Positions 6,555-55,969 of a stretch of 64,000 bases of DNA are shown piece by piece. Made by a program: the position numbers and the translations under genes. The stretch's first letter is position 1; each line of letters opens with the position of its first letter. The notes beneath the pieces were generated by a model. That model was not told the DNA's origin. It was given only the letters and a program-made list of their open reading frames with translations, and did not search any database. Source of the stretch: an uncultured Chloroflexia bacterium (GTDB taxonomy: Bacteria > Chloroflexota > Limnocylindria > Limnocylindrales > CSP1-4); assembly GCA_963813535.1 (NCBI GenBank), contig CAWEZH010000002.1, positions 576,001 through 640,000 of the forward strand, given 5' to 3'.

Positions 6555-7046
6555 ATGGCGGGCGATGCGTCGTTCGATGTGGTGAGCGATTTCGACGAGC
6601 AGGAGCTCAGGAACGCGCTCGATCAAGTCCGGCGCGAGGTCGGACAGCGCTACGACTTCAAGGGCGTCACGGTCGACCTGACCCAATCGAAGGACGAGGT
6701 CGTCCTCGTCACTGACGATGAGTACCGCGCCACGGCCGTGAAGGACCTCATCGAATCGAAGGCGATCCGGCGAAACCTCTCGCTCAAGATCTTCGACTGG
6801 GGTCGCGTCGAACCGGCCGGCGGTAACAAGGTCCGCCAGGAGATCAAGCTGCGGCGCGGGCTCACCGACGAGATCGCCAAGCGGATCACCAAGCTCATCC
6901 GCGACGAGTTCCCGAAGGTCAAGTCGCAGATCCAGGGCGACGCCGTTCGCGTATCGGCGAAGAGCAAGGACGACCTCCAAAAGGTCATCGCCCGGCTGCG
7001 CGAGCTCGATGAGCCCGTTCCGCTGCAATTCCAGAACTACCGCTGA
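6555..7046 (+). CDS. yajQ: YajQ family nucleotide (c-di-GMP)-binding protein
   Basis: SFDVVS, RYDFKG, QIQGDAVRVS, KDDLQ and LQFQNYR motifs; strong SD AGGAGG. Confidence 0.95.
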   Translation: MAGDASFDVVSDFDEQELRNALDQVRREVGQRYDFKGVTVDLTQSKDEVVLVTDDEYRATAVKDLIESKAIRRNLSLKIFDWGRVEPAGGNKVRQEIKLRRGLTDEIAKRITKLIRDEFPKVKSQIQGDAVRVSAKSKDDLQKVIARLRELDEPVPLQFQNYR

Positions 7047-7057
7047 GGTCGATCGTG

Positions 7058-7162
7058 ATGCCTGGCGCCCGGTTCGCGAAGATCGTGATGGTCGCGGTGA
7101 TCGTCGTGATCGTACTCGGGCTCGTGCTGTCGACGGTCGCCTATCCGCTCGCGTTCGGATGA
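7058..7162 (+). CDS. Unannotated 34-aa single-pass membrane protein MPGARFAKIVMVAVIVVIVLGLVLSTVAYPLAFG
   Basis: Fills the yajQ-TPP gap, GAGG upstream of the ATG, GC-rich third positions, stop overlaps next start (ATGA). Confidence 0.7.
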   Translation: MPGARFAKIVMVAVIVVIVLGLVLSTVAYPLAFG

Positions 7163-9024
7163 CCGACGAGCTCGTGCCGGTCCCCGGCAGCGATACACCG
7201 CTGTCGGAAGCCCCAGAGACGGCCCTCGAACCGCATCCGGCCGACCCCGGACCCGAGACCGACGCGGCAGACGCCCACAGCGAGCCGACGGAGGCCGCCG
7301 GTGAGGCGACGGAGGCGGCCAGCGAGCCGATCGAGGCGGCCAGCGAGCCGATCGACACTGGACCGAGGACCGTCGGTCGCTTGGTGGCGGACGCGCTCCG
7401 TACCGCCGGCGTGCGCTACGCGTTCACGGTTCCGGGCGAGTCATTCCTCGGACTGCTCGACGGGCTCCACGGTGCTGGGATCCGGGTGATCGCGACACGT
7501 CACGAAGGCGGAGCCGCCTTCATGGCCGAGGCACACGGCAATCTGACCGGGCGGCCCGCTGCGTGCATCGGTACGCGCGCGGTCGGCTCATCGAACCTGG
7601 CGATCGGCATCCACACGGCCCGCCAGGACTCCTCGCCGATGTTCGCGCTCGTGGGTCAGGTGGAACGGTCCCATCGGGGGCACGAGGCCTTCCAGGAGAT
7701 CGACCAGGTCGCCACGATCGGCGGCTTGGCCAAGTGGGCCGCGGAGCCCGCCGACGCCGCCGACGTACCCGGGGTACTGGCGGAGGCACTGCGACAGGTC
7801 GCCAGTGGACGACCGGGACCGGTGCTGCTGTCGTTCCCGGAAGACCTGCTCGACGAGCTCGTACCGTCCGATATGCGCATCGCGCCCGAGCGCCCGACCA
7901 TCGGTCGACCCACTGACGCCGACATCCGACAGGTCCTCGAATTACTGGCATCGGCCGTACGGCCCGTCATCCTCGCCGGTGGGGGCGTCCTTCGCGCCCG
8001 GACGTCGACCGACCTGCTGCGGTTCGCCGAACTGCTGCAGGTCCCGATCGTCGCCGGCTGGCGGCGTGCCGATGTCGTGTCGAATGACCACCCCCTCTAT
8101 CTCGGGATGGCGGGCATCGGTGCCGCGCCGAGCGTGCGCGAGCGATTGCTGGCGGCCGACGCGATGCTCGTGATCGGCTGCCGCCTGAGCGAACCGACGT
8201 CATGGGACGACACGATCCCGGCCTCCGGGACGCGCTGGGCGTCGGTCGACATCGAGCCTCACGCGTCTCACGGACCGCGACCCGCCGACCTGACGGTCGT
8301 CGCCGATGCGCGGACATTCCTCCGCGCCGCCAACGATCGGCTCGTGGGTCGTGCCGTGCTCGATGCGGAGAAGGTTCGCCACCGCCAGGCGAACAATGAG
8401 GTCGACCGGGCCGCGTGGGAGGCGGCGTCCATCGTCGACGCCGATGCCGACGCCTGGACCGGACCGGGCGTCCACCCGGGTCGCGTCGTGACGACGCTGC
8501 GCCAGGTCCTGCCCGACGATGCGATCCTCACGACGGATGCCGGGAACTTCGCCGGCTGGGCGGGTCGCGGGTTCCGGTTCCGCCGACCCGGGACCTTCCT
8601 CGGCCCGACGTCCGGCGCGATGGGCTACGCCGTCCCGGCGGCGATCGCGGCCGCGCTGGTCCATCGCGATCGGCCGGTCGTGGCGCTGGCCGGCGACGGC
8701 GGGATGGCCATGACGATGGCCGAGCTGGAGACCGCGACCCGGGAAGGCATCCGGATCATCGTCCTCGTGTTCGACAACGAGCGCTACGGGACGATCCGGA
8801 TGTGGCAGGCGCGTCGGGGCAGCGGCGAAGGTGTCGGCACCGAGCTTGGACCGGTCGATTTCGTGGCGATCGCTCGCGGGCTCGGGGCCCGCGGGATCCG
8901 CGTCGAGCGCGACGCCGACCTGGAGTCCGCCCTTCGCCAGGCTCTCGTCGAGGATCGCTCGACGGTGATCCAGCTCGTGGTCGACCGTGCCTGGGTCTCG
9001 GTCGACCAGCCAGCGACGGCCTGA
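7159..9024 (+). CDS. Thiamine pyrophosphate-binding enzyme (acetolactate synthase-like)
   Basis: VPGESF, RHEGGAAFMAEA, GRPGPV, SGAMGY and GDGG..N TPP motif; start moved to ATG 7159. Confidence 0.9.
   Translation: MTDELVPVPGSDTPLSEAPETALEPHPADPGPETDAADAHSEPTEAAGEATEAASEPIEAASEPIDTGPRTVGRLVADALRTAGVRYAFTVPGESFLGLLDGLHGAGIRVIATRHEGGAAFMAEAHGNLTGRPAACIGTRAVGSSNLAIGIHTARQDSSPMFALVGQVERSHRGHEAFQEIDQVATIGGLAKWAAEPADAADVPGVLAEALRQVASGRPGPVLLSFPEDLLDELVPSDMRIAPERPTIGRPTDADIRQVLELLASAVRPVILAGGGVLRARTSTDLLRFAELLQVPIVAGWRRADVVSNDHPLYLGMAGIGAAPSVRERLLAADAMLVIGCRLSEPTSWDDTIPASGTRWASVDIEPHASHGPRPADLTVVADARTFLRAANDRLVGRAVLDAEKVRHRQANNEVDRAAWEAASIVDADADAWTGPGVHPGRVVTTLRQVLPDDAILTTDAGNFAGWAGRGFRFRRPGTFLGPTSGAMGYAVPAAIAAALVHRDRPVVALAGDGGMAMTMAELETATREGIRIIVLVFDNERYGTIRMWQARRGSGEGVGTELGPVDFVAIARGLGARGIRVERDADLESALRQALVEDRSTVIQLVVDRAWVSVDQPATA
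7279..7355 (+). repeat. In-frame 21-bp tandem repeat (about 3.7 copies) encoding SEP(T/I)EAA units
   Basis: AGCGAGCCGACGGAGGCCGCC / GGTGAGGCGACGGAGGCGGCC / AGCGAGCCGATCGAGGCGGCC / AGCGAGCCGATCGA. Confidence 0.85.
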
Positions 9025-37042: not shown

Positions 37043-37217
37043 GCCGTGTCTCCCTTCGTCGTGCGTTTCAAGATGAGCATCGAGCTACATGGTCGACGCC
37101 GCATCTACGGAAATCCCTACGTTTCGGGACCGGTCGCCTCTGTCCGTTCGCCCACAGTGACATGGGACCGTCACGCAACGTCCGCCAGCCGACCTCGGGG
37201 TTCGGTAGCCTTGACGC

Positions 37218-39485
37218 ATGACCGAATACATCGAGCTGCGAGGGGCGCGCGAGAACAACCTCAAGGACATCTCGCTGCGGATCCCAAAACGGCGGATCAC
37301 GATCTTCACCGGCGTGTCCGGCTCCGGGAAGTCGTCGATCGTGTTCGACACGATCGCGACCGAGGCGCAGCGGCAGCTCTACGAGAACTTCAGCATGTTC
37401 ATCCGGAGCTTCCTGCCGCGCTACCCGCAGCCCGAGGCCGACGCCATCGAGAACCTCAGCATGGCCGTGATCGTCGATCAGAAACGGCTGGGCGGCGGGT
37501 CGCACTCGACCGTCGGCACCGTGACCGACATCTACACCGCCCTTCGCCTGCTGTTCTCGCGCGTCGGCAAGCCCCATATCGGGTACTCGAACGTGTTCTC
37601 GTTCAATGACCCGCAGGGCATGTGCCCGGAGTGCAACGGGCTCGGTCGAAAGGCCGGTTTCGTCGTCGACGACCTGGTCGACATGACGAGATCGCTCAAC
37701 GAAGGCGCCGTCAAGGTGCCGTTCTGGGGAGACTGGGACATCAGCGCTTACGCCGCGTCGGGCTTCTTCGACAATGACAAGAAGGTCGCAGATTACACGC
37801 CCGCTGAGTTGGACCTGCTCCTGTACGGCAAGGACCGGAAGTACAAGCTGCCGATCGGCGACAAGGAGATGAACGCCTCGTACTTCGGCGTGGTCGAGAA
37901 GCTCGAGCGCAAGTACGTCAGGCAGGACATCAAAGCGCTCTCGGAGCGGACCCAGAAGCAGGTCGAGCCATACATGCGCATGCGGGTGTGCCCGCTGTGC
38001 AAGGGCGCTCGCCTGAGCCAGGCCGCGCTCAGCTCGAAGATCGACGGCCACGACATCGCCGAGCTTGCCGGTCTGGAGATCGGCGACCTCATCGCCGTCC
38101 TGCGACTGATGACCGATCCGGTCGGCGAGCCGATCGTCCGGACGCTCGTCGAACGCCTGCAGCACATGGTCGACATCGGCCTCGATTACCTCAGCCTCGA
38201 TCGCGAGACGGACACGCTGTCGGGCGGGGAGTCGCAGCGCGTCAAGCTCGTCAAGCACCTCGGGAGCAGCCTGGTCGACGTCATGTACATCCTCGACGAG
38301 CCGAGCATCGGGCTCCATCCACGCGACGTCCATCGGCTGACCGAGTTGCTGCAGCTGCTGCGCGACCGCGGCAACACCGTGCTCGTCGTCGAGCACGACC
38401 CCGACGTGATCAAGGCGGCGGACCACGTCGTCGACGTCGGGCCGCTCGCCGGGAGCGCCGGCGGGGAGATCGTGTTCGAGGGATCGTTCGCCGACCTGCG
38501 GACCACCGACACGCTCACGGGCCAGTACCTGGATCGCTCACTCCCGCTCAAGGAGCGCACCCGCACGCCGACCGGCTGGCTACCGGTCCGGGACGCGCGA
38601 GCCAACAACCTCAAGGGCGTCGACGTCGACATCCCGACAGCGGTGCTCACCGTCGTGACCGGCGTCGCGGGCTCGGGCAAGAGCTCGCTGATCGACGAGG
38701 TGTTCCTCCCGGAGCACCCGGAGGCCGTGGTGATCGATCAGTCCGCCGTCGGTACGTCGACCCGCTCCAACCCGGCCACCTACACCGGCGTGATGGACGA
38801 CATCCGCAAGGCGTTCGCGGTCGCCAACACGGTGGACGCCGGCCTGTTCAGCTTCAACTCGAAGGGTGCCTGCGAGAACTGCAATGGCTCGGGTGTCATC
38901 TACACGGAGTTGTCGTTCCTCGGGGGTGTCAAGACGCCGTGCGAGATCTGCGAGGGACGTCGGTTCAAGGACGAGGTCCTCGAGTACACGCTCGATGGCC
39001 GCAACGTCTCCGAGGTCCTCGCCCTCACCGTGGCCCAGGCGCTCGAGGCGTTCACCCAGAAGGACATCCGCCGCAAGCTCCAGGCCATGAGTGACGTCGG
39101 GCTCGACTACCTCACGCTCGGCCAGCCGCTGAGCACCCTATCGGGTGGTGAATGCCAGCGGATCAAGATGGCCAGCGAGCTGCACAGGAAGGGCAACATC
39201 TACGTCCTCGACGAGCCGACGACGGGACTCCACATGTCGGATACGAGCCACCTGCTCGAGATGCTCGACCGACTGGTCGACGCCGGCAACACGGTCATCG
39301 TCATCGAGCACAACCTCGACGTGGTCCGGAACGCCGACTGGATCATCGACCTCGGGCCGGAGGGTGGAAGCCGTGGCGGACAGCTGATCTTCAGCGGAAC
39401 GCCGAGCGGGATCCTCGAGGCGCCGGGCTCACTCACCGGCGAGTATCTCCGCCGGCGCGAACCCGCGGCAGCGATCCACGCCTGA
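37218..39485 (+). CDS. UvrA-like ABC ATPase, short class II (UvrA2/DrrC-like)
   Basis: GARENNLK, GVSGSGKSS, two LSGGE and LDEP sets, CxxC zinc fingers; 755 aa, shorter than canonical UvrA. Confidence 0.9.
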   Translation: MTEYIELRGARENNLKDISLRIPKRRITIFTGVSGSGKSSIVFDTIATEAQRQLYENFSMFIRSFLPRYPQPEADAIENLSMAVIVDQKRLGGGSHSTVGTVTDIYTALRLLFSRVGKPHIGYSNVFSFNDPQGMCPECNGLGRKAGFVVDDLVDMTRSLNEGAVKVPFWGDWDISAYAASGFFDNDKKVADYTPAELDLLLYGKDRKYKLPIGDKEMNASYFGVVEKLERKYVRQDIKALSERTQKQVEPYMRMRVCPLCKGARLSQAALSSKIDGHDIAELAGLEIGDLIAVLRLMTDPVGEPIVRTLVERLQHMVDIGLDYLSLDRETDTLSGGESQRVKLVKHLGSSLVDVMYILDEPSIGLHPRDVHRLTELLQLLRDRGNTVLVVEHDPDVIKAADHVVDVGPLAGSAGGEIVFEGSFADLRTTDTLTGQYLDRSLPLKERTRTPTGWLPVRDARANNLKGVDVDIPTAVLTVVTGVAGSGKSSLIDEVFLPEHPEAVVIDQSAVGTSTRSNPATYTGVMDDIRKAFAVANTVDAGLFSFNSKGACENCNGSGVIYTELSFLGGVKTPCEICEGRRFKDEVLEYTLDGRNVSEVLALTVAQALEAFTQKDIRRKLQAMSDVGLDYLTLGQPLSTLSGGECQRIKMASELHRKGNIYVLDEPTTGLHMSDTSHLLEMLDRLVDAGNTVIVIEHNLDVVRNADWIIDLGPEGGSRGGQLIFSGTPSGILEAPGSLTGEYLRRREPAAAIHA

Positions 39486-39572
39486 CCGTCGGGGGCTGAC
39501 GGCCGGGGAGTAGGCTGGGGGCGCCCACCGACTCGACCGTTGCCAGGCCGGCTTGGGCGGGAAGGGTCCGTC

Positions 39573-40385
39573 ATGACGACGACCACCGCTACCGTGCCGC
39601 GCGATGACGGGCGTTCCGTCCGGGACCAGGTCGCGAGCGTCGCCCTGTTCGTCGCGATCACGCTGACGTTCGCCCTCATCGCCACCGTCCTCGCGATCAA
39701 CTCCGGCGCGGACCCGAACCTGCTCGCGTTCCCGTTGGCACTGGCACCAGCGCTCATCGCGATCGCCCTCGCATGGCGCGAGGGCGCAGTCCGCCAGCTG
39801 CTACGCCGGCTGGCGGTCCTTCCGGCACGGCCGATCTGGTTCGCCACCTTGTTGCTGCCGCTGGCGGCGTTCCTCGCCGTCGATGTCGTCGCCGTGGCCC
39901 TTGGCGAACCGATCACCGGCCTGTTCGACAGCGTCTTCCCGGCCGTCCTCATCGTGCCGCTGGTCGTGCTCCTTCCTGCGATCACCGAGGAGATCGGCTG
40001 GCGCGGCTTCGCCCTCCACCGATCCCTGAGCGCGACATCGCCGTTGCGTGCCGCGCTGATCCTCGGCGTCCCGTGGACACTCATCCACGTCGGCCTGTTC
40101 CTCCCCGGCCAGATGAATGCGGGAGCGGCCTACTGGTCGATGGCGACCCAGATCATGTCCATGTCGGTGATCCTGGCCTGGGTCTACGTGGGTACTGGTC
40201 GGAGCATCTTGATGGCTGCCCTCATGCACGCGCTCTTCAATGGGTTCGTGCCGCTGTCGGGCGGGGTCGAACCCGAGCTCGCCTGGGCCATCCGCGGCAT
40301 CGTGTGGCCGATCATCGCGCTCGCGATCGTCGCGCTCGGCGGGTTCCGCGGTCTCGACCTACGTGGGCAGCACACCGAGGCCTAG
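39573..40385 (+). CDS. CPBP (CAAX/Abi) intramembrane metalloprotease
   Basis: EEIGWRGF, W..IH and HALFN motifs. Confidence 0.9.
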   Translation: MTTTTATVPRDDGRSVRDQVASVALFVAITLTFALIATVLAINSGADPNLLAFPLALAPALIAIALAWREGAVRQLLRRLAVLPARPIWFATLLLPLAAFLAVDVVAVALGEPITGLFDSVFPAVLIVPLVVLLPAITEEIGWRGFALHRSLSATSPLRAALILGVPWTLIHVGLFLPGQMNAGAAYWSMATQIMSMSVILAWVYVGTGRSILMAALMHALFNGFVPLSGGVEPELAWAIRGIVWPIIALAIVALGGFRGLDLRGQHTEA

Positions 40386-44343: not shown

Positions 44344-44402
44344 GGCTCCCACCTCGCCGACCGTAGGGCACACTTTCTCTTGTGACCCCTCGCCGATCCG
44401 CC

Positions 44403-45350
44403 ATGCCCGACTTCATCCCGCCGATGCTCGCGACGCTGGTAGCCGCGCCGTTCGATGACCCGGACTGGTCGTTCGAGATCAAGTGGGACGGCTTCCGCGT
44501 CGAGACGGTGGTCGACCGCGGCAAGGTGCGGATGTGGACGCGCGGGCAACAGGATGCGGCACGCTATTTCGGGCCGTTCCTTGATCCGGCCGACTGGATC
44601 GCCGCCGACCAGGCGATCGTCGATGGCGAGGTGATCGCGCTCGACGACCACGGCGAACCCGACTTCGCCCTCCTCCAGGCGCGCATCAAGGGTCGCGGCA
44701 CGGGAGGATCACCGACGCCATTCGTCTACGAGGTGTTCGACCTGATGCACCTCGACGGTCGATCGCTGCTCGACGAGCCACTGGACGTTCGCCGGGCGCT
44801 CCTGAAGGACGTCATCGGCGCCGATCCGCGTGTCCGGCTCAGCGAGGACATCGCAGGGGAGGGGCTGGCGTTCTTCGAGGCCGCGAGGAAGCGTGGTCTC
44901 GAGGGCATCATGGCCAAGGACCGGCGCTCTCCATACCTGCCCGGCAAGCGCGCGATGTCGTGGCAGAAGGTCAAGATCCGGCCCGAGCAGGAGCTCGTCG
45001 TCGGCGGGTGGACCAAGGGCACCGGCAAAGCCGTCGAGCTCGGGGCATTGTTGGTCGGCGTGTATGAGGACGGCGCGCTCCGCTATGCGGGCAAGATCGG
45101 TGCCGGTTTCAATGACGCCATCCGCCGCGAGCTGCTCGAGGCGATCGCACCGCTCGCTGCCGATGCACCACCGTTCGCGGAGCCACCGCCACGCGCCGTG
45201 TCGAAGAGCGCCCTCTGGCTACGTCCCGACCTGGTGATCAGGGCCGAGTTCGCCGGCTGGACCGGGGACGGCCTCGTCCGCCAGGCGGCCTACAAGGGTT
45301 TCGATCTCGGGAAGGATCCCCGCAAGGTCCGTCGGGAGATGCCGCGATGA
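44403..45350 (+). CDS. ligD: ATP-dependent DNA ligase (LigD ligase domain only)
   Basis: PMLATL, EIKWDGFR adenylation motif, DGEV, FDL, EGIMAK and WQKVK. Confidence 0.9.
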   Translation: MPDFIPPMLATLVAAPFDDPDWSFEIKWDGFRVETVVDRGKVRMWTRGQQDAARYFGPFLDPADWIAADQAIVDGEVIALDDHGEPDFALLQARIKGRGTGGSPTPFVYEVFDLMHLDGRSLLDEPLDVRRALLKDVIGADPRVRLSEDIAGEGLAFFEAARKRGLEGIMAKDRRSPYLPGKRAMSWQKVKIRPEQELVVGGWTKGTGKAVELGALLVGVYEDGALRYAGKIGAGFNDAIRRELLEAIAPLAADAPPFAEPPPRAVSKSALWLRPDLVIRAEFAGWTGDGLVRQAAYKGFDLGKDPRKVRREMPR

Positions 45351-46845: not shown

Positions 46846-46933
46846 CACGTAACGATACGCGCCGGGCATGACGTCGGATGCGGTCTCGATCCGTGACAGC
46901 GAACCTGTCAGCCGGTGACCCGACGCTACCGAC

Positions 46934-47185
46934 ATGGCAGGCGGTTCGGGTGACTTCAGACGCGCCGAGGCAGCGTGGTCGGCGGGGCGGCGCATGATCG
47001 CCCGCAAGGATCGGCCGTGCTACCGCGTGGCGGAGACGGGTGACGGGACGACGTTCCACATCATCGAGCTGCCGTGGATCGCGCCGTTCGCGGCGACCCG
47101 GTCGACCGCCGTCGAACGCGCACGGCAGACGGTCAGCGCCTGGCTCGACGTCGACCCGCAGGCCTTCGATATCGAGCGCGACTAG
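46934..47185 (+). CDS. Small HicB-like (antitoxin N-terminal fold) protein
   Basis: IELP......TRS.AVERAR..V..WLDVDP..FDIE resembles actinobacterial HicB-like proteins. Confidence 0.55.
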   Translation: MAGGSGDFRRAEAAWSAGRRMIARKDRPCYRVAETGDGTTFHIIELPWIAPFAATRSTAVERARQTVSAWLDVDPQAFDIERD

Positions 47186-47352
47186 TGCGACACGATTGCC
47201 AGTGTCGCCAAAGCACCGCATTCTTGGGCCTGGTGCTTCGGCGCACCCCGGGCTAGGAAGAAAGGACTACCCTTCAACACGACCCGGCGAGGGGACAGCG
47301 CCGGCCATGATCGATCCGCGATGCGGGCCTAGCCTCAGGGGGAGTCCAGGTC

Positions 47353-49335
47353 ATGTCGCTGCTTCAACGGATGGAGCGCGCCCAACGAGCGAAAGCGGCG
47401 GAAGCCGCCGCCGCCAACGGTGAAAGCGCTCCGGACCAACTCGAAGAACCATCGCCGCCCGCTCCCGAGACCGCCGCGGTCACGGTCAGCCCCGAGGCGC
47501 CGTCCAACGGTCATGCGCCCGCGCTGGTCGCCATCCCGGTGGGGCCGGCTGTGTCCGGTGGTCTCATGGGCCCCGCCACACCGACCGGGCTCATGCGACC
47601 GGCCCCGACGCCGGCCCGCGAGGAGCTGATCCGCGAGGTCCGCATCCGCCTCCAATCCGAGATCGTCGGCGCGTTCAAGACGTTGCTCGACGCCACGGAG
47701 GACGAGGCCCAGGAACGGATCGCCGCCCTGGTGGATCGCACGATCGCCAAGGGCGCGTATGCCGTGACCCGCGAGGAACACGAGCGGCTCGTCGAGGAGA
47801 TGGTCCACGACGTCACGGGCTTCGGCCCGCTGGAACCGCTCTTGTCCGACCCGTCCATCACCGAGGTGATGGTCAACGGGCCCGATCACATCTACATCGA
47901 GCGGGGCGGCAAGATCGAGCGGATCGACAGCGTCTTCCTCAACGACCAGCACGTCCTGCGCGTCATCGACCGCATCATCACCCCGCTCGGACGCCGGATC
48001 GACGAAAGCAGCCCACGGGTCGACGCCCGACTGCCAGATGGCTCGCGCGTCAATGCCGTCATCGAACCGCTCTCATTGGTCGGACCGGTCATCACGGTCC
48101 GCAAGTTCTCCAAGACGCCGTATACCGTCGACGACCTGATCGGGTTCGGGACCGCCACGCCCGCGATGTTCGACTTCCTCCAGGCGTGCATCGAGGCTCG
48201 ACTCAACGTGTTCGTGTCCGGTGGCACCGGGTCCGGCAAGACCACGACGCTCAACGTCCTGTCGACGTTCATCCCGAACGACGAACGGATCGTCACGATC
48301 GAGGACGCTGCCGAGCTCCAGATGCGCCAGGACCACGTCATCACGCTGGAATCCAGGCCGCCCAACCTCGAGGGCGAGGGCGAGATCACGATCAGGAACC
48401 TGCTGCGCAACGCGATGCACATGCGGCCCGACCGGATCATCGTCGGCGAGTGCCGGGCGGGCGAGGCGCTCGACATGCTCCAGGCGATGACCACCGGTCA
48501 CGATGGATCGCTGTCCACCGGCCACGCCAACAGCCCCAGGGACATGCTGCGGCGGCTCGAGACGATGGTGCTCATGACCGGCTACCAGCTGCCGCTCCGG
48601 GCGATCCGCGAGCAGATGGCCTCCGCCGTGGACATCATCGTCCACACGGCGCGTCTCAAGGACGGCAGCCGCAAGATCGTCAACATCACCGAGGTGTATG
48701 GGATCGAGGACGACGAGATCCTGACCCACGACATCTTCCGGTTCGTGCAGACCGGCTATCACGACGGCCGGATCGAGGGCTCCCTCCAGCCGACGGGTCT
48801 GCGGCCGACCTTCATGGCCCAATTCGCGCGGGCCGGCATCGAGCTTCCTCCTGGGGAGTTCGGGATCCCGCCCGATGACCCGGAGAACCCCGTACGGCCG
48901 CAGAAGAGCCGGTTCGGCGCCCGGATGACGAGCAGCGCCGAGTACGCGGCCGTGCCCGCCGGCGACGGCAAGGCCGTCGTCGCGGGCGGCATGGTCTACG
49001 TCTCGTCGATCGGCCCGGTCGACCCGGAGACGGGTGAGGTCATCTCAGGCACGATCAAGGAGCAGACGCGGCGCTGCATGACGAGCCTCAGCGACCGGCT
49101 CGAAGCCGCGGGGAGCTCGATGGGCAAGGTCGTCTGGGCGAACTGGTCGCTGAGGGACGCGTCGGACTTCGACGAGTTCAATGAGGAGTGGAACCGCTGG
49201 TTCCCCAAGACCCCGCCGCTGGGCCAGCTGACGGTCATGCCGCCCCTCCAGCGGCGAGCCGGCTTCGGCGTCTCGCTCGGAGTGATCGCCACGGTCGACG
49301 ACGTGGTGATCGACGAGGTCGGCAGCGGCTGGTGA
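47353..49335 (+). CDS. CpaF/TadA secretion ATPase fused to a C-terminal Rid (YjgF/YER057c/UK114)-like domain
   Basis: GPLEPLL.DP..TEVMVNG, DARLPDGSRVN, GGTGSGKTT, IEDAAEL, RPDRIIVGE, TGH; then VYVSSIGPVDPETGEVISGTIKEQTRR..LEAAGSSM. Confidence 0.9.
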   Translation: MSLLQRMERAQRAKAAEAAAANGESAPDQLEEPSPPAPETAAVTVSPEAPSNGHAPALVAIPVGPAVSGGLMGPATPTGLMRPAPTPAREELIREVRIRLQSEIVGAFKTLLDATEDEAQERIAALVDRTIAKGAYAVTREEHERLVEEMVHDVTGFGPLEPLLSDPSITEVMVNGPDHIYIERGGKIERIDSVFLNDQHVLRVIDRIITPLGRRIDESSPRVDARLPDGSRVNAVIEPLSLVGPVITVRKFSKTPYTVDDLIGFGTATPAMFDFLQACIEARLNVFVSGGTGSGKTTTLNVLSTFIPNDERIVTIEDAAELQMRQDHVITLESRPPNLEGEGEITIRNLLRNAMHMRPDRIIVGECRAGEALDMLQAMTTGHDGSLSTGHANSPRDMLRRLETMVLMTGYQLPLRAIREQMASAVDIIVHTARLKDGSRKIVNITEVYGIEDDEILTHDIFRFVQTGYHDGRIEGSLQPTGLRPTFMAQFARAGIELPPGEFGIPPDDPENPVRPQKSRFGARMTSSAEYAAVPAGDGKAVVAGGMVYVSSIGPVDPETGEVISGTIKEQTRRCMTSLSDRLEAAGSSMGKVVWANWSLRDASDFDEFNEEWNRWFPKTPPLGQLTVMPPLQRRAGFGVSLGVIATVDDVVIDEVGSGW

Positions 49336-49379
49336 CGTTCCCCGGCTCCAGCCCCGCTCCGGGCTAGGTCGCCACCAAC

Positions 49380-50000
49380 CTAGGAGTCGTCGTCCCCGAC
49401 CAGGGGGACCGGCACGACGTGCTCCGCGAGGAACCAGACCTGCAGCTCGTGGCGGCGCAGCACGTCGCCCATCAACAGGTCGTTGGAGCCCCAGTCCTCC
49501 GACTCCTCCGTCGTCTTGATGCCCGCCCGGACCTTCTCGATGATGATCTCGTGAGCATGCAGGGTCCGGTCGATCATGACCGCGACCTCTTCTCGGCCGT
49601 CGGGGGGTCGAGGGATCGTCGTCAGCTCGGCAGCGTGGCGCGGGTCACCGACCGCGATACCGCCGAGGCTCTGGATCCGCTCTGCCAACAGGTCGACGAG
49701 CTCGCCCTGCTCCTCGTAGTGCTTGTCGAACAGCAGGTGGAGCTGGTAGAAGGTCGGGCCTGACACGAGCCAGTGGTTCTTCTTGTACAGCGCGTAGAGG
49801 ACCATCGAGTCGGCGAGGATCTCGTTGAGCAGGTCGCAGCTCTCGGCGCGCGCCGTGTCCTTGAGCGCGATCGGCAGCGTCCGCAGGGTCCCGAACCGCT
49901 GGAGCTCCGGACCGTGCTCGTCGAGTCGCGGTTGGGCCGACCGGCGACCGGAGCCGTTGCGCGCCGAGGAGCTGGATCGGGTCGATCGGGTCGTGGCCAT
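49380..50000 (-). CDS. dps: Dps family DNA-protecting ferritin-like protein
   Basis: KKNHWLVSGPTFYQLHLLFD, DLLAERI and WFL. Confidence 0.93.
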   Translation of the reverse strand: MATTRSTRSSSSARNGSGRRSAQPRLDEHGPELQRFGTLRTLPIALKDTARAESCDLLNEILADSMVLYALYKKNHWLVSGPTFYQLHLLFDKHYEEQGELVDLLAERIQSLGGIAVGDPRHAAELTTIPRPPDGREEVAVMIDRTLHAHEIIIEKVRAGIKTTEESEDWGSNDLLMGDVLRRHELQVWFLAEHVVPVPLVGDDDS

Positions 50001-53107: not shown

Positions 53108-53773
53108 GTGAACGCCGCCGAGTCAGACCTGCGCGTCGTCATCGCCGATGACTCGGCGCTCCTTCGGGAGGGGATCGCGCGGCTGATCGAGGAATCGGGT
53201 GGGACCGTCGTCGCCAAGGTCGCCGATGGCGACGCGTTCGTGGCGGCCGTCATCGAGCATCGACCCGATGTCTCGGTGGTCGATGTACGGATGCCACCCA
53301 CCCAGCGTGACGAAGGCCTGCGTGCCGCCATCGAGGCCCGCCGGCGCGTGCCCGGGACGCCGATCCTGGTGCTCAGCCAGTACGTGGAGCGGCAGTACGC
53401 GACCGAGCTACTCGCCGACCGCGGTGGTGGTGTCGGCTACCTGCTCAAGGACCGAGTCGGCGACATCCCGGAGTTCATGGATGCGCTGCGACGCGTCGCG
53501 CGCGGCGGCACGGCACTCGACTCGGAGGTCGTCGCCCAGCTGATGGTCCGCAACAAGCCCGACGACCCGCTGGCGGCGCTGACGCCGCGCGAGCGGGAGG
53601 TGCTGGCCGCCATGGCCGAAGGTCGTACCAACGTCGGCATCGCGAGGCTTCTCACCATCACCGAAGGCGCGACCGAGAAGCACATCAGCAACATCTTCGG
53701 CAAGCTCGAGCTGCCCCAGACGGAGGGCGATCACCGCCGGGTGCTCGCGGTGCTGACCTACCTGGGCTCCTAG
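53108..53773 (+). CDS. NarL/LuxR-family response regulator
   Basis: ADDSALLREG, DVRMPP, GYLLK and LTPREREVL..MAEG. Confidence 0.95.
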   Translation: MNAAESDLRVVIADDSALLREGIARLIEESGGTVVAKVADGDAFVAAVIEHRPDVSVVDVRMPPTQRDEGLRAAIEARRRVPGTPILVLSQYVERQYATELLADRGGGVGYLLKDRVGDIPEFMDALRRVARGGTALDSEVVAQLMVRNKPDDPLAALTPREREVLAAMAEGRTNVGIARLLTITEGATEKHISNIFGKLELPQTEGDHRRVLAVLTYLGS

Positions 53774-55131
53774 ACAGGTGCCTCGACCGGGGCCGGGAAC
53801 ACGGCCCGCACGAGGGTCGGGCCGCCGCGCGGACTCGACACGGAAAACGCGCCGTCGACACCCGCGACACGGCTCGCCAGACCCGCCAGACCGCCACCAG
53901 GCTCGATGGCGGCGCCGCCGGTCCCGTCGTCCCAGATCTCGACGACCAGCTGCGCTCCCTCGCGACGGCAGCGGACCTCGCAGCGCGCCGCCCCACTGTG
54001 CTTGGCGACATTCGCGAGCGCCTCGGACGCGACGAAGTACGCAGCACGCTCGACAGCGGGAGGCAGACGCTCACCAGGCGCGAGCTCGCTGATCACCGCC
54101 GTCCGGATCCCGCCGAGGCTCGTGATCGACTCGATGGCGGGAACCAGGCCCCGGTCCAATAGGATGGCCGGCGCGATCCCGCGCACCAGCTGGCGGATCT
54201 CGGCCAGTGCCGCCCGCGCCTGCTCCTGGCCCTCGCGGACCAGCTCCTTCGCGCCCTCCGGATCGGTGTCGATGCGCTCGCTCGCAAGCCCCAGGTCGAT
54301 CGAGAGCCTGACCAGGCGCGGCTGCGCACCGTCGTGGAGATCACGCTCGATGCGACGGAGCTCGCTCGCCTCGACGTCGAGCACCGCCGATCGACTCTCC
54401 CGGAGCGTCTCGACCTGGCGCCGGAGCTCGCGGCTCTCCGACGTGCACAGCAGACCGACCACGACCTGCCGGTGCAGCGCGAGCACCAGCTGCGACAGCG
54501 AAGCGGCGACGAACAGCAGGATCACCCCGGCGACCGGCCCGAGCCACGCGAGCTCCACGATCGCGACGGGCACGCTCGGGAGCCGCTCGATCCAGAGGGG
54601 CAGGGTCAGCGATACGAGCGCCAGCGCCCATGCGATACCGACAACGAGGAACTCGATGATCGTGAGCGGGAGGTTCACCGCGACGTAGAGGACGTCGCGC
54701 CAGCGGGCCTCGTCGGCGAACTCCGCACGCAGGATGTCGAGGATGCCGCCTCGAAGCGGCCGATACGGGTGCGGGATGGGTCGGTCGACCTCGCCGACGA
54801 ATACGCGCCAGCGCTCGACCCGGGCGACGAGCCGGGATCCCTCGATGGCGAGCGCGATGAGGACCACCCCGATCCCGGCAAGCAGCACCGTCAGGCCGGT
54901 CGAGACCAGGGCGACGACGGCCGCGAAGGCGAACGTACCGACGAACAGCCCGATGATGATCGCGCCGTTGGCGTACCAGGTGGTCGGGTGGATCGGCGAG
55001 AGCAGGAACGCCCGAAGCGGAGAACGAGCGATCCCCGGTCGAGCGAAGCTCGCTCCACCGGGGATGCGGGCCGAGGCGAGCCCGGCCAGGATCAGCAGCA
55101 GCCCTGTCACCAGGACGACTGCCTCGATCAC
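53770..55131 (-). CDS. Sensor histidine kinase (HisKA_3, membrane sensor domain)
   Basis: RIERDLHDGAQ, EALANVAKHS, DDGTGG and GLAGL. Confidence 0.92.
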   Translation of the reverse strand: MIEAVVLVTGLLLILAGLASARIPGGASFARPGIARSPLRAFLLSPIHPTTWYANGAIIIGLFVGTFAFAAVVALVSTGLTVLLAGIGVVLIALAIEGSRLVARVERWRVFVGEVDRPIPHPYRPLRGGILDILRAEFADEARWRDVLYVAVNLPLTIIEFLVVGIAWALALVSLTLPLWIERLPSVPVAIVELAWLGPVAGVILLFVAASLSQLVLALHRQVVVGLLCTSESRELRRQVETLRESRSAVLDVEASELRRIERDLHDGAQPRLVRLSIDLGLASERIDTDPEGAKELVREGQEQARAALAEIRQLVRGIAPAILLDRGLVPAIESITSLGGIRTAVISELAPGERLPPAVERAAYFVASEALANVAKHSGAARCEVRCRREGAQLVVEIWDDGTGGAAIEPGGGLAGLASRVAGVDGAFSVSSPRGGPTLVRAVFPAPVEAPV

Positions 55132-55592
55132 GTGCCGGTCAAGTCGGTCGACTCCACCGGATCGGTCGTCTCGCGGCGCATCGCGCCGACGACCAGCAGG
55201 GCCCCGATCCCGACGATGAACGCCGGGGCGAGGTAGCGCCACGAGTCCTGCCACGAGGGCAGGAAGGCGTCGAGGAGCGCGAGGCCCCCGAACAGGATCA
55301 ACGCGACCCCGAAGAACGTCGCGAGTCGACCCGTCCCCTCGCCACGAGCGGCGTGACGGTGGCCCTCAGGCAGGGCGGCAAGTTGGGTGGCTTCCATGTC
55401 GGTCAGGGGTTCGATCGGCACGATGATCGCCATGACGAGGTACAGCAGGATGCTGAGACCGCCGGTGACGAAGATCGATACGAACCAGAGCAGCCGGACG
55501 ATGGTCGGGTCAGCGTCGAAGTACTCGGCCATGCCGGCCGAGACTCCGGCAAGACGTCGGTCATGACGGCAACGATAGAGACGGCGATTCAC
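55128..55592 (-). CDS. PspC domain protein
   Basis: RLYR...DRRLAGVSAGMAEYFDADPTIVRL..Y..P; SD GGAGG before GTG 55592. Confidence 0.88.
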   Translation of the reverse strand: MNRRLYRCRHDRRLAGVSAGMAEYFDADPTIVRLLWFVSIFVTGGLSILLYLVMAIIVPIEPLTDMEATQLAALPEGHRHAARGEGTGRLATFFGVALILFGGLALLDAFLPSWQDSWRYLAPAFIVGIGALLVVGAMRRETTDPVESTDLTGT

Positions 55593-55969
55593 CTGCATCC
55601 TCCCATCGGATCGATCTGGACGTTGCCGAAGTCGATGTGGACGTCGGCCTCGTCGCAGTAGTGGTAGCGGTCATAGGCGGCCTCGAGCGCGTCCCACGCC
55701 CCGCGCTCTGTGGCCAGGCGCGGCGCGGTGACCAGGGCCCCGCCGAGGATGAGCCCGGGTAGAGCGGCGGCGAGCAAGCCCGTCGCCAGGCTGGCTTGGG
55801 TCCGGCGCAGCGCGATCCCCAGACCGATGGCGATGACCGCCAGGGGCCAGAGACGCAGGGCGTCGGTCAGCGCGGCCGTCGTGAGCTGCCCAAGGTCGGC
55901 GAGCGCGATCGCGGCGCCGATGGCCAGCAGGAACACGCCCGTGTAGAGGAGCGTGCGGTTGAGCCGCAT
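55589..55969 (-). CDS. LiaF/LiaI-like (DUF5668) membrane protein
   Basis: GVFLLAIG...LRLWPL..IAIG pattern; coupled to the PspC gene. Confidence 0.65.
   Translation of the reverse strand: MRLNRTLLYTGVFLLAIGAAIALADLGQLTTAALTDALRLWPLAVIAIGLGIALRRTQASLATGLLAAALPGLILGGALVTAPRLATERGAWDALEAAYDRYHYCDEADVHIDFGNVQIDPMGGCR

What the first reader, a model, noticed from the sequence alone, without database searches (positions are those of the whole stretch)
47353..49335. Orphan Tad-pilus ATPase fused to a catalytically degenerate Rid/YjgF domain
Seen: a complete CpaF/TadA ATPase continues in frame through a Pro-rich linker into about 110 aa (from about 48961) that follow the RidA pattern (AVVAGGMVYVS..GPVDPETGEVISGTIKEQTRR..L...LEAAGSSM.KVV....L.D..DF..FNE.W..WFP..PP). 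The catalytic Arg of the PAR motif is replaced (PPLG), and the C-terminal VEIE is VSLG. No tadB/C, flp or cpaB/E genes flank it. Known: Rid domains are trimeric small-molecule-binding folds and need that Arg for imine deaminase activity; TadA is hexameric. Inference: a metabolite-sensing alternative pilus motor, whose Rid cap (two trimers per hexamer) may couple metabolic state to Tad pilus activity encoded elsewhere. I know of no described system with this fusion.
Basis: partly seen in the sequence, partly recalled or inferred. Interest (0 to 1): 0.78.

Follow-up and report, generated by a model that had tools for sequence, protein, structure and literature searches.

The report
Pilus motor ATPase with Rid cap
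This is a real, conserved gene of uncultured soil Chloroflexota in which a second copy of the Tad-pilus motor ATPase carries an enzymatically dead, probably trimer-forming Rid domain on the face that recent work links to pilus retraction, so it may be a natural extension-only motor.

Summary
ORF 47353-49335 (660 aa) is a complete CpaF/TadA ATPase running in frame into a Rid-fold domain whose catalytic Arg is Gly. It is not an assembly artefact. The same fusion occurs in 32 of 44 other genomes of the same Limnocylindria family and in 46 named Chloroflexota MAG loci. It was not found outside that family among the genomes searched. The scan had already noted this fusion in three other genomes.

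The ATPase is a fast-evolving paralogue of the canonical CpaF, which sits in a complete tad locus on another contig. The Rid part joins exactly at the canonical C-terminus. It has lost Arg105, Tyr17 and Glu120, while its nearest stand-alone relatives keep Arg and Tyr. It is predicted to trimerise.

Extension-face contact residues are invariant in the fusion clade. The Arg whose mutation stops retraction in Caulobacter is kept in only 12 of 52 fusions, against 31 of 31 canonical copies.

Best reading (about 0.45): an accessory Tad motor whose capped C-terminal face no longer serves retraction. Metabolite sensing is weakened but not excluded. I found no paper describing the fusion. Novelty: new variant of a known kind.

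The parts
47353..49335 (+). Whole gene: CpaF paralogue fused to a Rid domain, 660 aa plus stop
   Evidence: N-terminus MSLLQRMERAQ is conserved in 43 homologues.
47353..47616 (+). NTD0, residues 1-88: a conserved N-terminal helix (1-21), then a variable Pro/Ala-rich disordered stretch
   Evidence: alignment; (helix 3-21, pLDDT below 50 for 23-86). The canonical paralogue starts MSLLKRIESARP. Layout follows C. crescentus CpaF (PMC11300603, passages read).
47617..47817 (+). NTD1 three-helix bundle, residues 89-155. This is the fastest-evolving ordered part.
   Evidence: Helices 89-113, 116-134 and 140-155. Pairwise identity 0.49 in fusions against 0.96 in canonical copies. dN/dS 0.54.
47818..48162 (+). 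NTD2, residues 156-270, with the extension-face helix and loop 8 (GRRID, residues 213-217)
   Evidence: Equivalents of G204, R205, R206 and D208 are invariant, apart from 1 R-to-H in 41 fusion rows. Residue roles come from PMC12019362.
48163..48861 (+). ATPase C-terminal domain, residues 271-503: Walker A GGTGSGKTT (290-298), Asp box, pore loop 334-346, Walker B E366, His box, C-terminal-face motifs
   Evidence: 391 bits to solved CpaF structures 8rkd, 8rjf and 9e24.
48538..48540 (+). Arg396, the equivalent of C. crescentus CpaF R387 (retraction-critical)
   Evidence: Mapped through the alignment. Arg here, but K23 R12 P9 Q3 N2 A1 G1 S1 in 52 distinct fusions, against R in 31 of 31 canonical copies.
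48862..48966 (+). Linker, residues 504-538, Pro-rich and poorly conserved, starting at the canonical C-terminus
   Evidence: The canonical copy ends ...LPPGLFGFTY and the fusion continues LPPGEFGIPPDD.... Pairwise identity 0.45, dN/dS 0.60, pLDDT 46-75.
48967..49299 (+). Rid (YjgF/L-PSP) fold domain, residues 539-649, non-catalytic
   Evidence: Pfam 57.8 bits. AF2 pLDDT above 93. Foldseek TM 0.78-0.90. VIA Z up to 18.1, rmsd 1.3 over 106 residues. Trimer predicted. dN/dS 0.31.
49222..49224 (+). Gly624 at the position of the catalytic Arg105 of RidA
   Evidence: Invariant in 43 of 43 homologues. The P-x-G-Q motif is in 49 of 52 distinct fusions; the other 3 have frame-shifted tails.
49300..49332 (+). 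Short variable C-terminal tail, residues 650-660
   Evidence: Absent or different in most homologues. pLDDT 43-58.

Best explanation
The gene encodes a lineage-specific second copy of the Tad (Flp) pilus motor ATPase CpaF. It arose once by duplication of the resident cpaF inside Limnocylindria. At the native C-terminus it acquired a flexible linker of about 35 residues and a Rid-fold domain. That domain has lost the imine-deaminase residues and is kept mainly as a trimer-forming module.

Shown: domain identity, fold, conservation, single origin, intact ATPase motifs and intact extension-face contact residues.

Inferred: the protein forms the usual hexamer and works on the single Tad machine encoded on another contig, docking to TadB/TadC with its N-terminal (extension) face. 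Its C-terminal face, which in Caulobacter CpaF is needed for retraction and is blocked by a C-terminal mCherry tag, is occupied by two Rid trimers per hexamer and no longer needs the retraction-critical Arg. On this reading the paralogue drives extension but not retraction. The balance between capped and uncapped CpaF would then set how long pili stay out.
For: Identity:
- T2SSE plus Rid domains; 391 bits to solved CpaF.
- Walker A Lys, Walker B Glu and the Asp box are invariant.

Real and conserved:
- The 120 of 120 best database hits carry both Pfam domains.
- A full-length match is present in 32 of 44 other family-f1 genomes.
- There are 46 named MAG loci, of which 30 give one open frame of 605 or more codons ending in the Rid motif.

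One Tad machine:
- The genome has only two T2SSE and two T2SSF genes. The complete tad locus is on C3.
- 31 of the 32 genomes with the fusion also have a canonical CpaF.

Origin:
- The fusion ATPases form one clade (SH-aLRT 100) inside the class clade.
- Grouping them with the canonical f1 copies is not rejected (p-AU 0.53).
- The join is at the canonical C-terminus.

Asymmetry between the two faces:
- Equivalents of G204, R205, R206, D208, E331 and G334 (extension face, PMC12019362) are invariant in the 41 fusion rows, with one R-to-H exception.
- The R387 equivalent is Arg in 12 of 52 fusions and non-basic in 17, against 31 of 31 canonical copies.
- 7 of the 15 sites fixed differently between the paralogues lie in residues 432-488 (binomial p 0.024).

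Literature: R387A and a C-terminal mCherry fusion abolish visible retraction in C. crescentus (preprint 10.64898/2026.02.24.707734; abstract, passages and part 2 of the main text read).

Cap:
- Rid fold confirmed.
- Trimer score 0.87 against a best control of 0.00. That mark was reached by 20 of 30 solved pairs and 1 of 23 single chains. Runs agree in at least 74% of contacts; partner pLDDT at least 83.
- Predicted interface residues are invariant in 16 of 32 cases, against 15 of 79 for the rest of the domain (Fisher p 0.0014).
- Rid dN/dS is 0.31.
Against: - Nothing here is experimental, and the organism is uncultured.
- The inversion model is itself a preprint that leans on AlphaFold3 models plus mutants.
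- In this window's copy position 396 is still Arg, and Lys (23 of 52) is a conservative change.
- The beta13-beta14 turn (HTARLKDGSRK) and much of the C-terminal motif stay conserved within the fusion clade. The preprint reports that these decay in single-orientation motors.
- The linker is long and looks flexible, so the cap may swing away rather than block.
- The part that evolves fastest is NTD1, on the extension side (12-fold). The whole ATPase diverges about 5 times faster than the canonical copy, so some relaxation is general.
- His383 of the His box is Gln in 12 of 41 fusion rows.
- The gene was not found in 12 of 44 family genomes, so it is dispensable.
- The trimer pass may reflect the model's memory of the many solved Rid trimers, and buried interface residues tend to be conserved anyway.
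- The hexamer with its caps could not be modelled (size limit), so the geometry is inferred.
Confidence: 0.45

Rival explanations
1. Ligand-gated motor. The Rid cap binds a small metabolite at its inter-subunit pocket and so couples metabolic state to motor activity or direction.
For: Rid folds bind small carboxylates at the subunit interface (PMC4433059, passages read). The domain is under purifying selection (dN/dS 0.31). The former active-site stretch P-x-G-Q-x-T is invariant and lies in the predicted interface. Replacing Arg by Gly, and a small residue at the Tyr position, would enlarge the pocket.
Against: The carboxylate-binding Arg105, the Tyr17 position and the Glu of VEIE are all replaced, whereas the nearest stand-alone relatives keep Tyr and Arg. 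Arg-less Rid4-7 proteins have no known ligand or activity (PMC4433059). No metabolic gene is a conserved neighbour. The invariant residues are explained as well by trimer contacts.
Confidence: 0.2
2. Assembly clamp without a directional role. Rid trimerisation only helps three neighbouring protomers come together, or ties hexamers to each other, stabilising or localising a weakly assembling paralogue.
For: Predicted trimer. Interface residues are the best conserved. CpaF hexamers are C2-symmetric dimers of trimers (preprint text read; PMC11300603). The fusion ATPase evolves fast and may assemble poorly on its own.
Against: This does not explain why the retraction-critical Arg, and not its invariant neighbours GHAN..DMLRRL, became free to vary, nor the clustering of fixed differences on the C-terminal face.
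Confidence: 0.15
3. A motor for something other than the Tad pilus, or a competitive inhibitor. The orphan ATPase works without TadB/TadC, or binds them unproductively to shut the pilus down.
For: Orphan, apparently monocistronic gene with unconserved neighbours. NTD1 is only 32% identical to the canonical copy of the same genome. The best NCBIfam model, TIGR03819, is below its cut-off (328.6 against 373.15). His383 is Gln in 12 of 41 rows.
Against: All six extension-face platform-contact residues and the catalytic motifs are invariant. The conserved N-terminal peptide is shared with the canonical copy. No second platform gene exists in the genome. It co-occurs with canonical CpaF in 31 of 32 genomes.
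Confidence: 0.15
4. Decaying or neutral duplicate, or an assembly or annotation artefact such as a lost stop or a chimera.
For: Five-fold faster divergence than the canonical copy. Not found in 12 of 44 family genomes. Several long-read MAG copies carry frameshifts.
Against: The same junction is present in 46 independent MAG loci from many studies. dN/dS is well below 1 in the ATPase (0.11-0.18) and the Rid part (0.31). Catalytic residues are invariant. The clade is old enough to span identities down to 47%.
Confidence: 0.03

Closest known systems
CpaF/TadA, the bifunctional motor ATPase of Tad (type IVc, Flp) pili (C. crescentus CpaF; PDB 8rkd, 8rjf, 9e24)
   Same: Same domain order: disordered N-terminus, three-helix NTD1, NTD2, CTD. 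391 bits over residues 118-497. All nucleotide-binding motifs and the platform-contact residues of loop 8 and the pore loop are present. 63% identical to the canonical CpaF of the same genome.
   Different: It carries about 155 extra C-terminal residues (linker plus Rid). It is not in a tad operon. It evolves about 5 times faster. Across the clade the R387-equivalent is not conserved.
C. crescentus CpaF-mCherry C-terminal fusion and the R387A mutant (preprint 10.64898/2026.02.24.707734)
   Same: A bulky domain sits on the C-terminus of CpaF, on the face proposed to engage the platform for retraction. The retraction-critical Arg is dispensable.
   Different: This one is natural, not engineered. 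The cap is a 12-kDa domain predicted to trimerise, on a linker of about 35 residues. It coexists with an uncapped paralogue. Its phenotype is unknown.
Rid (YjgF/YER057c/UK114) family, especially the Arg-less subfamilies Rid4-7
   Same: Rid fold (Z 18.1). Predicted homotrimer. Lacks the Arg needed for imine hydrolysis, like Rid4-7 (PMC4433059).
   Different: The PMC4433059 passages read report Trp (Rid4, Rid7) or a variable residue (Rid5, Rid6) at the Arg position and say these subfamilies keep the Glu. Here the residue is Gly and the Glu is also lost. Its nearest relatives are Arg-bearing stand-alone proteins with the NEEWxRWFPxxPPARQ motif, so the loss is recent and specific to this clade. 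It is fused to an ATPase. The passages I read in that paper describe only Rid-Rid tandem fusions.
Dedicated extension and retraction motor pairs (PilB/PilT) and ligand-sensing pilus ATPases (MshE with its N-terminal c-di-GMP domain; recalled, not tested here)
   Same: Two paralogous motors share one platform, possibly with divided labour. An accessory domain on a pilus ATPase modulates activity.
   Different: Both paralogues here are CpaF-type, and the specialisation would come from a cap rather than from a PilT-type AIRNLIRE face. The accessory domain is C-terminal and of the Rid fold.

Membership tests
CpaF/TadA (PilT/VirB11-like T2SSE ATPase of Tad pili) | T2SSE domain above the Pfam cut-off and close similarity to solved CpaF | tested here: met
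   206.3 bits against 24.9. E 3.9e-116 and 391 bits to 8rkd, 8rjf and 9e24.
CpaF/TadA (PilT/VirB11-like T2SSE ATPase of Tad pili) | Walker A, Asp box, Walker B and His box | tested here: met
   GGTGSGKTT, TIEDAAEL, DRIIVGECR and TGHDGSLSTGHAN are present. K296, E317, E366 and H391 are invariant. H383 is His here but Gln in 12 of 41 family rows.
CpaF/TadA (PilT/VirB11-like T2SSE ATPase of Tad pili) | Platform-contact residues of the extension face (loop 8 G-R-R-x-D, pore loop E and G) | tested here: met
   All six are present here and invariant in the family, apart from 1 R-to-H in 41 rows. Residue list from PMC12019362.
CpaF/TadA (PilT/VirB11-like T2SSE ATPase of Tad pili) | Encoded in a tad operon next to tadB/tadC, cpaE/tadZ and flp | tested here: not met
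   No tad family among the 19 neighbours. The genome's only T2SSF genes are on C3. Context is not conserved in 14 related loci.
CpaF/TadA (PilT/VirB11-like T2SSE ATPase of Tad pili) | Retraction-face Pro-Arg (P386, R387 of C. crescentus), for a dual-orientation motor | tested here: inconclusive
   Present in this copy (P395, R396). Across the clade Arg is kept in only 12 of 52, while canonical copies keep it in 31 of 31.
CpaF/TadA (PilT/VirB11-like T2SSE ATPase of Tad pili) | Hexamer that hydrolyses ATP and binds TadB/TadC | not testable with these tools
   The full-length AF2 model was poor (pLDDT 51.7). The hexamer exceeds the complex tool's size limit.
TIGR03819 (TadA family conjugal transfer-associated ATPase) | Score above NCBIfam's curated cut-off | tested here: not met
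   328.6 bits against 373.15.
Rid superfamily (PF01042, YjgF/YER057c/UK114) | Pfam domain above cut-off and the chorismate-mutase-like Rid fold | tested here: met
   57.8 bits against 27.3. pLDDT above 93 over the domain. Foldseek TM 0.78-0.90, rmsd 1.3-1.8. VIA Z 18.1.
Rid superfamily (PF01042, YjgF/YER057c/UK114) | Homotrimer | tested here: inconclusive
   The model supports it: 0.87 against a best control of 0.00, a mark reached by 20 of 30 solved pairs and 1 of 23 single chains, with contacts agreeing in at least 74% and pLDDT at least 83. It may be passing on likeness to solved Rid trimers.
RidA subfamily (imine/enamine deaminase) | Arg105 (PAR motif), essential for imine hydrolysis | tested here: not met
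   Gly624, invariant in 43 of 43. TIGR00004 scores 53 bits against a cut-off of 106.25.
RidA subfamily (imine/enamine deaminase) | Tyr17 and Glu120 | tested here: not met
   The Tyr position is Asp538 here and varies (D, P, I, H) in the clade. VEIE is VSLG.

The most novel reading that the evidence does not exclude
The Rid cap is a ligand-gated direction lock. [quoted passage not shown] This would switch the motor between extension-only and bidirectional, giving soil Limnocylindria metabolic control over pilus retraction. It would also be the first case in which nature tunes the proposed motor inversion with an accessory domain.
Probability: 0.12. Interest if true: 0.85.

Novelty: new variant of a known kind. 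Interest (0 to 1): 0.6.

Why it matters
How one ATPase both extends and retracts Tad pili is an open question. The current proposal is that the hexamer flips over and uses its C-terminal face for retraction, and it rests on models and a few Caulobacter mutants. This clade looks like a natural experiment on that proposal. The genomes hold an uncapped CpaF that keeps the retraction Arg without exception, and a capped paralogue in which that Arg is free to vary while the extension-face contacts stay fixed. If the capped copy proves to be extension-only, that would give independent evolutionary support for the inversion model. It would also show a route from single-motor to two-motor pilus systems, and give the Arg-less Rid fold a first structural, non-enzymatic role. 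The construct is easy to test in Caulobacter.

Tried and rejected
- Full-length AF2 model with a shallow alignment of 43 close homologues: mean pLDDT 51.7 and the ATPase part about 30, so unusable. I modelled the Rid part alone instead.
- Gene neighbourhood: 14 related loci of about 18 kb show no conserved partner. Leucyl-tRNA synthetase is divergent in 5 of 14, and synteny holds only within the genus.
- Promoter and terminator scan of 46900-49600: 0 sites of either kind.
- Read support across the junction: 4 runs laid, all short Logan contigs of soil, permafrost and rhizosphere metagenomes, and no contig bridges 48850-48960 with 31 or more letters on both sides. RNA-library contigs cover 48707-48883 (X17) and 48958-49108 and 49121-49335 (X16), but DNA carry-over cannot be excluded. 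This says nothing firm on the junction or on transcription. The junction question is answered by the 46 independent MAG loci.
- The figure of 2386 hits is not a count of fusions, because the query part included 75 ATPase residues. Only the 120 listed rows were inspected.
- Short proteins that begin at the linker (P0123, P0125 and others), and two odd architectures (ABC2_membrane_2 plus Rid in P0140; an aldehyde dehydrogenase end plus Rid in P0155), are probably truncated or chimeric gene calls on short contigs.
- Placement of the duplication: the free tree puts the fusion clade outside canonical f1+f4 with weak support (83 and 88), but holding it with f1 is not rejected (p-AU 0.53). The timing stays open.
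- Earlier-findings look-up by words added nothing beyond the look-up by sequence.
Full report
**Observation**

The window holds one uninterrupted ORF at 47353-49335 (+), 660 aa.
- Pfam finds T2SSE at residues 155-431 (206.3 bits) and Ribonuc_L-PSP at residues 540-620 (57.8 bits, cut-off 27.3).
- NCBIfam's best model is TIGR03819 at 328.6 bits, below its cut-off of 373.15. The RidA model TIGR00004 scores 53 bits against 106.25.
- HMMER alignment to PDB 1xrg places Gly624 of PPLG opposite the Arg of PAR.
- Alignment with this genome's own RidA places VSLG opposite VEIE and Asp538 opposite Tyr17.

**Not an artefact**

- A database search with residues 430-660 listed 120 best proteins, and all 120 carry PF00437 and PF01042 at 71-93% identity. 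Some are named Candidatus Limnocylindrales.
- In 151 genomes of the same class, a match running from the ATPase to about residue 647 is present in 32 of 44 other genomes of family f1. It is absent from the listed matches of families f2 to f5, whose matches end near residue 505.
- In 301 genomes of the phylum, full-length matches again come only from f1 (11 of 15 other f1 genomes in that sample).
- These two tallies include 7 and 4 unpublished genomes. None of them holds the fusion, and no sequence was taken from them.
- A scan of named genome records returned 46 relatives. All are Chloroflexota or Limnocylindrales MAGs, except one labelled Saccharimonadales and one labelled Anaerolinea.
- 30 of the 46 give a single open frame of 605 or more codons ending in the Rid motif. 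Most of the rest sit at contig ends or are long-read MAGs with frameshifts.
- An exhaustive HMMER search with residues 490-660 found only 18 cluster representatives at E below 1e-30, mostly fragments of the same fusion. The family is narrow.
- The scan had already noted this fusion on three other genomes.

**The genome's Tad machine**

The genome (3.28 Mb, 69% G+C, 3 contigs) has two T2SSE ATPases and two T2SSF platform genes. The other ATPase lies on contig C3 in a complete tad locus. That locus holds a LuxR-type response regulator and kinase, four or five tandem Flp pilin genes, CpaB/RcpC, a REC-ParA protein of the CpaE/TadZ type, CpaF (469 aa), TadB, TadC and DUF192.

Around the fusion gene there is no tad gene. 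The neighbourhood is not conserved in 14 related loci. 31 of the 32 genomes with the fusion also have a canonical CpaF.

**Origin**

- The canonical CpaFs end ...LPPGLFGF(S/T)Y. The fusion reads ...LPPGEFGIPPDDPENP... and goes on, so the join is at the native C-terminus.
- In a tree of 61 ATPase parts the 20 fusion rows form one clade (SH-aLRT 100) on a long stem. That clade sits inside the clade of the class (99).
- The free tree puts the fusion clade beside canonical f1+f4 with weak support. A tree holding it with canonical f1 is not rejected (p-AU 0.53).
- One row (L023, frame-shifted) was left out of the tree.
- In 12 genomes that have both paralogues, the fusion ATPase is 5.0 times more diverged than the canonical one. 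By region the ratios are NTD1 12-fold, NTD2 5.3-fold, CTD core 2.9-fold and C-terminal face 3.5-fold.

**The Rid part**

- With an alignment of 52 diverse relatives, AF2 gives pLDDT above 93 over residues 539-649.
- Foldseek's best matches are RidA, YjgF and YabJ structures (TM 0.78-0.90, rmsd 1.3-1.8 Å). VIA-align gives Z up to 18.1.
- The nearest stand-alone relatives (37-46% identical) share the NEEWxRWFP motif but keep YSQA and PPARQ. The loss of Tyr and Arg is therefore specific to the fusion clade.
- Arg105 is essential for imine hydrolysis, and the Arg-less subfamilies Rid4-7 have no known activity (PMC4433059, abstract and passages).
- dN/dS (Nei-Gojobori, 21 sequences, 210 pairs; rough in a genome with such strong codon bias) is 0.31 for Rid, 0.11 for the CTD core, 0.60 for the linker and 0.54 for NTD1.
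- A three-copy prediction of residues 529-651 scored 0.87 against a best control of 0.00. That mark was reached by 20 of 30 solved pairs and 1 of 23 single chains. Contacts agree in at least 74%, and pLDDT is at least 83. Many Rid trimers are solved, so this pass may come from likeness.
- The predicted interface includes the fusion-specific Trp595 and Asn597 and the former active-site stretch P622-Q633. 16 of its 32 residues are invariant, against 15 of 79 elsewhere in the domain (Fisher p 0.0014). Buried residues are conserved in any case, so this is consistent with trimerisation but not decisive.

**Link to motor direction**

It proposes that CpaF drives extension with its N-terminal face on the platform and retraction with its C-terminal face. 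It reports that R387A and a C-terminal mCherry fusion abolish visible retraction in C. crescentus.

PMC12019362 (passages) names the extension-face contacts: G204, R205, R206 and D208 on loop 8, and E331 and G334 on the pore loop. I mapped these through the alignment, with an offset of +9.
- All six extension-face equivalents are invariant in 41 fusion rows (one R-to-H) and in 31 canonical rows.
- The R387 equivalent (position 396) is Arg in 31 of 31 canonical copies. Among 52 distinct fusions it is K23, R12, P9, Q3, N2, A1, G1, S1, while its neighbours GHAN..DMLRRL stay fixed.
- Of 15 sites fixed differently in the two paralogues, 7 lie in residues 432-488 (binomial p 0.024).

**Against this reading**

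- This window's own copy still has Arg396.
- Lys is a mild change.
- The beta13-beta14 turn and much of the C-terminal motif remain conserved within the clade.
- NTD1, on the extension side, is the most relaxed part.
- His383 is Gln in 12 of 41 rows.
- The linker is long and probably flexible.

**Verdict**

The gene is a real, clade-specific CpaF paralogue with a non-catalytic, probably trimeric Rid cap. The most likely mechanism (about 0.45) is an accessory motor for the single Tad machine that extends but does not retract pili.

The rivals are a ligand-gated cap (0.2), an assembly clamp without a directional role (0.15), a platform-independent or inhibitory role (0.15) and decay or artefact (0.03).

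Three full-text searches found no paper describing the fusion: CpaF+RidA (4 unrelated papers), Limnocylindria+pili (0) and YjgF+TadA+pilus+fused (0).

Noticed in passing
G000 contig C3, locus L036 about 6681-8288: Four or five tandem Flp-type pilin genes (shared core GQGLAEYALILALIAIIAIIALIFLGNQVSTILSTVG) lie upstream of cpaB in the main tad locus. A LuxR-type response regulator and HisKA_3 kinase pair precedes them.
   Followed up: partly
window 37215-39485 (+): A 756-aa protein with ABC_tran and UvrA DNA-binding domains, i.e. a UvrA-like paralogue. It is followed by a CAAX-protease-like membrane protein at 39540-40385.
   Followed up: no
window 44382-45350 (+): A stand-alone ATP-dependent DNA ligase (DNA_ligase_A_M plus A_C, 322 aa), LigD or LigC-like, two genes upstream of the fusion.
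   Followed up: no
window 53108-55254 and 55589-55969: A LuxR-type response regulator, a sensor kinase (Sensor plus HisKA_3) and a LiaF-like membrane protein, i.e. a cell-envelope-stress type module.
   Followed up: no
proteins P0129, P0133, P0148 and many others: Many proteins of about 400 aa with three Rid domains in tandem (covalent pseudo-trimers). These are the known 3x-Rid type mentioned in PMC4433059.
   Followed up: no
proteins P0123, P0125, P0127, P0134, P0154: Short proteins (164-226 aa) that begin with Met exactly at the ...PTF...LPPGEFGIPP... end of the ATPase and carry the Arg-less Rid domain. They are either truncated gene calls or split forms, and this could not be resolved.
   Followed up: partly
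The genome search class table, family f3: Genomes of family f3 show 3-5 CpaF-like matches each, against 1-3 in f1 and mostly 1 in f4. CpaF paralogy is therefore common in the class even where the Rid fusion was not found.
   Followed up: no
fusion family, residue 383 (window 48499-48501): The first His of the His box (TGHDG) is Gln in 12 of 41 fusion rows but His in 31 of 31 canonical CpaFs. It is His in this window.
   Followed up: partly
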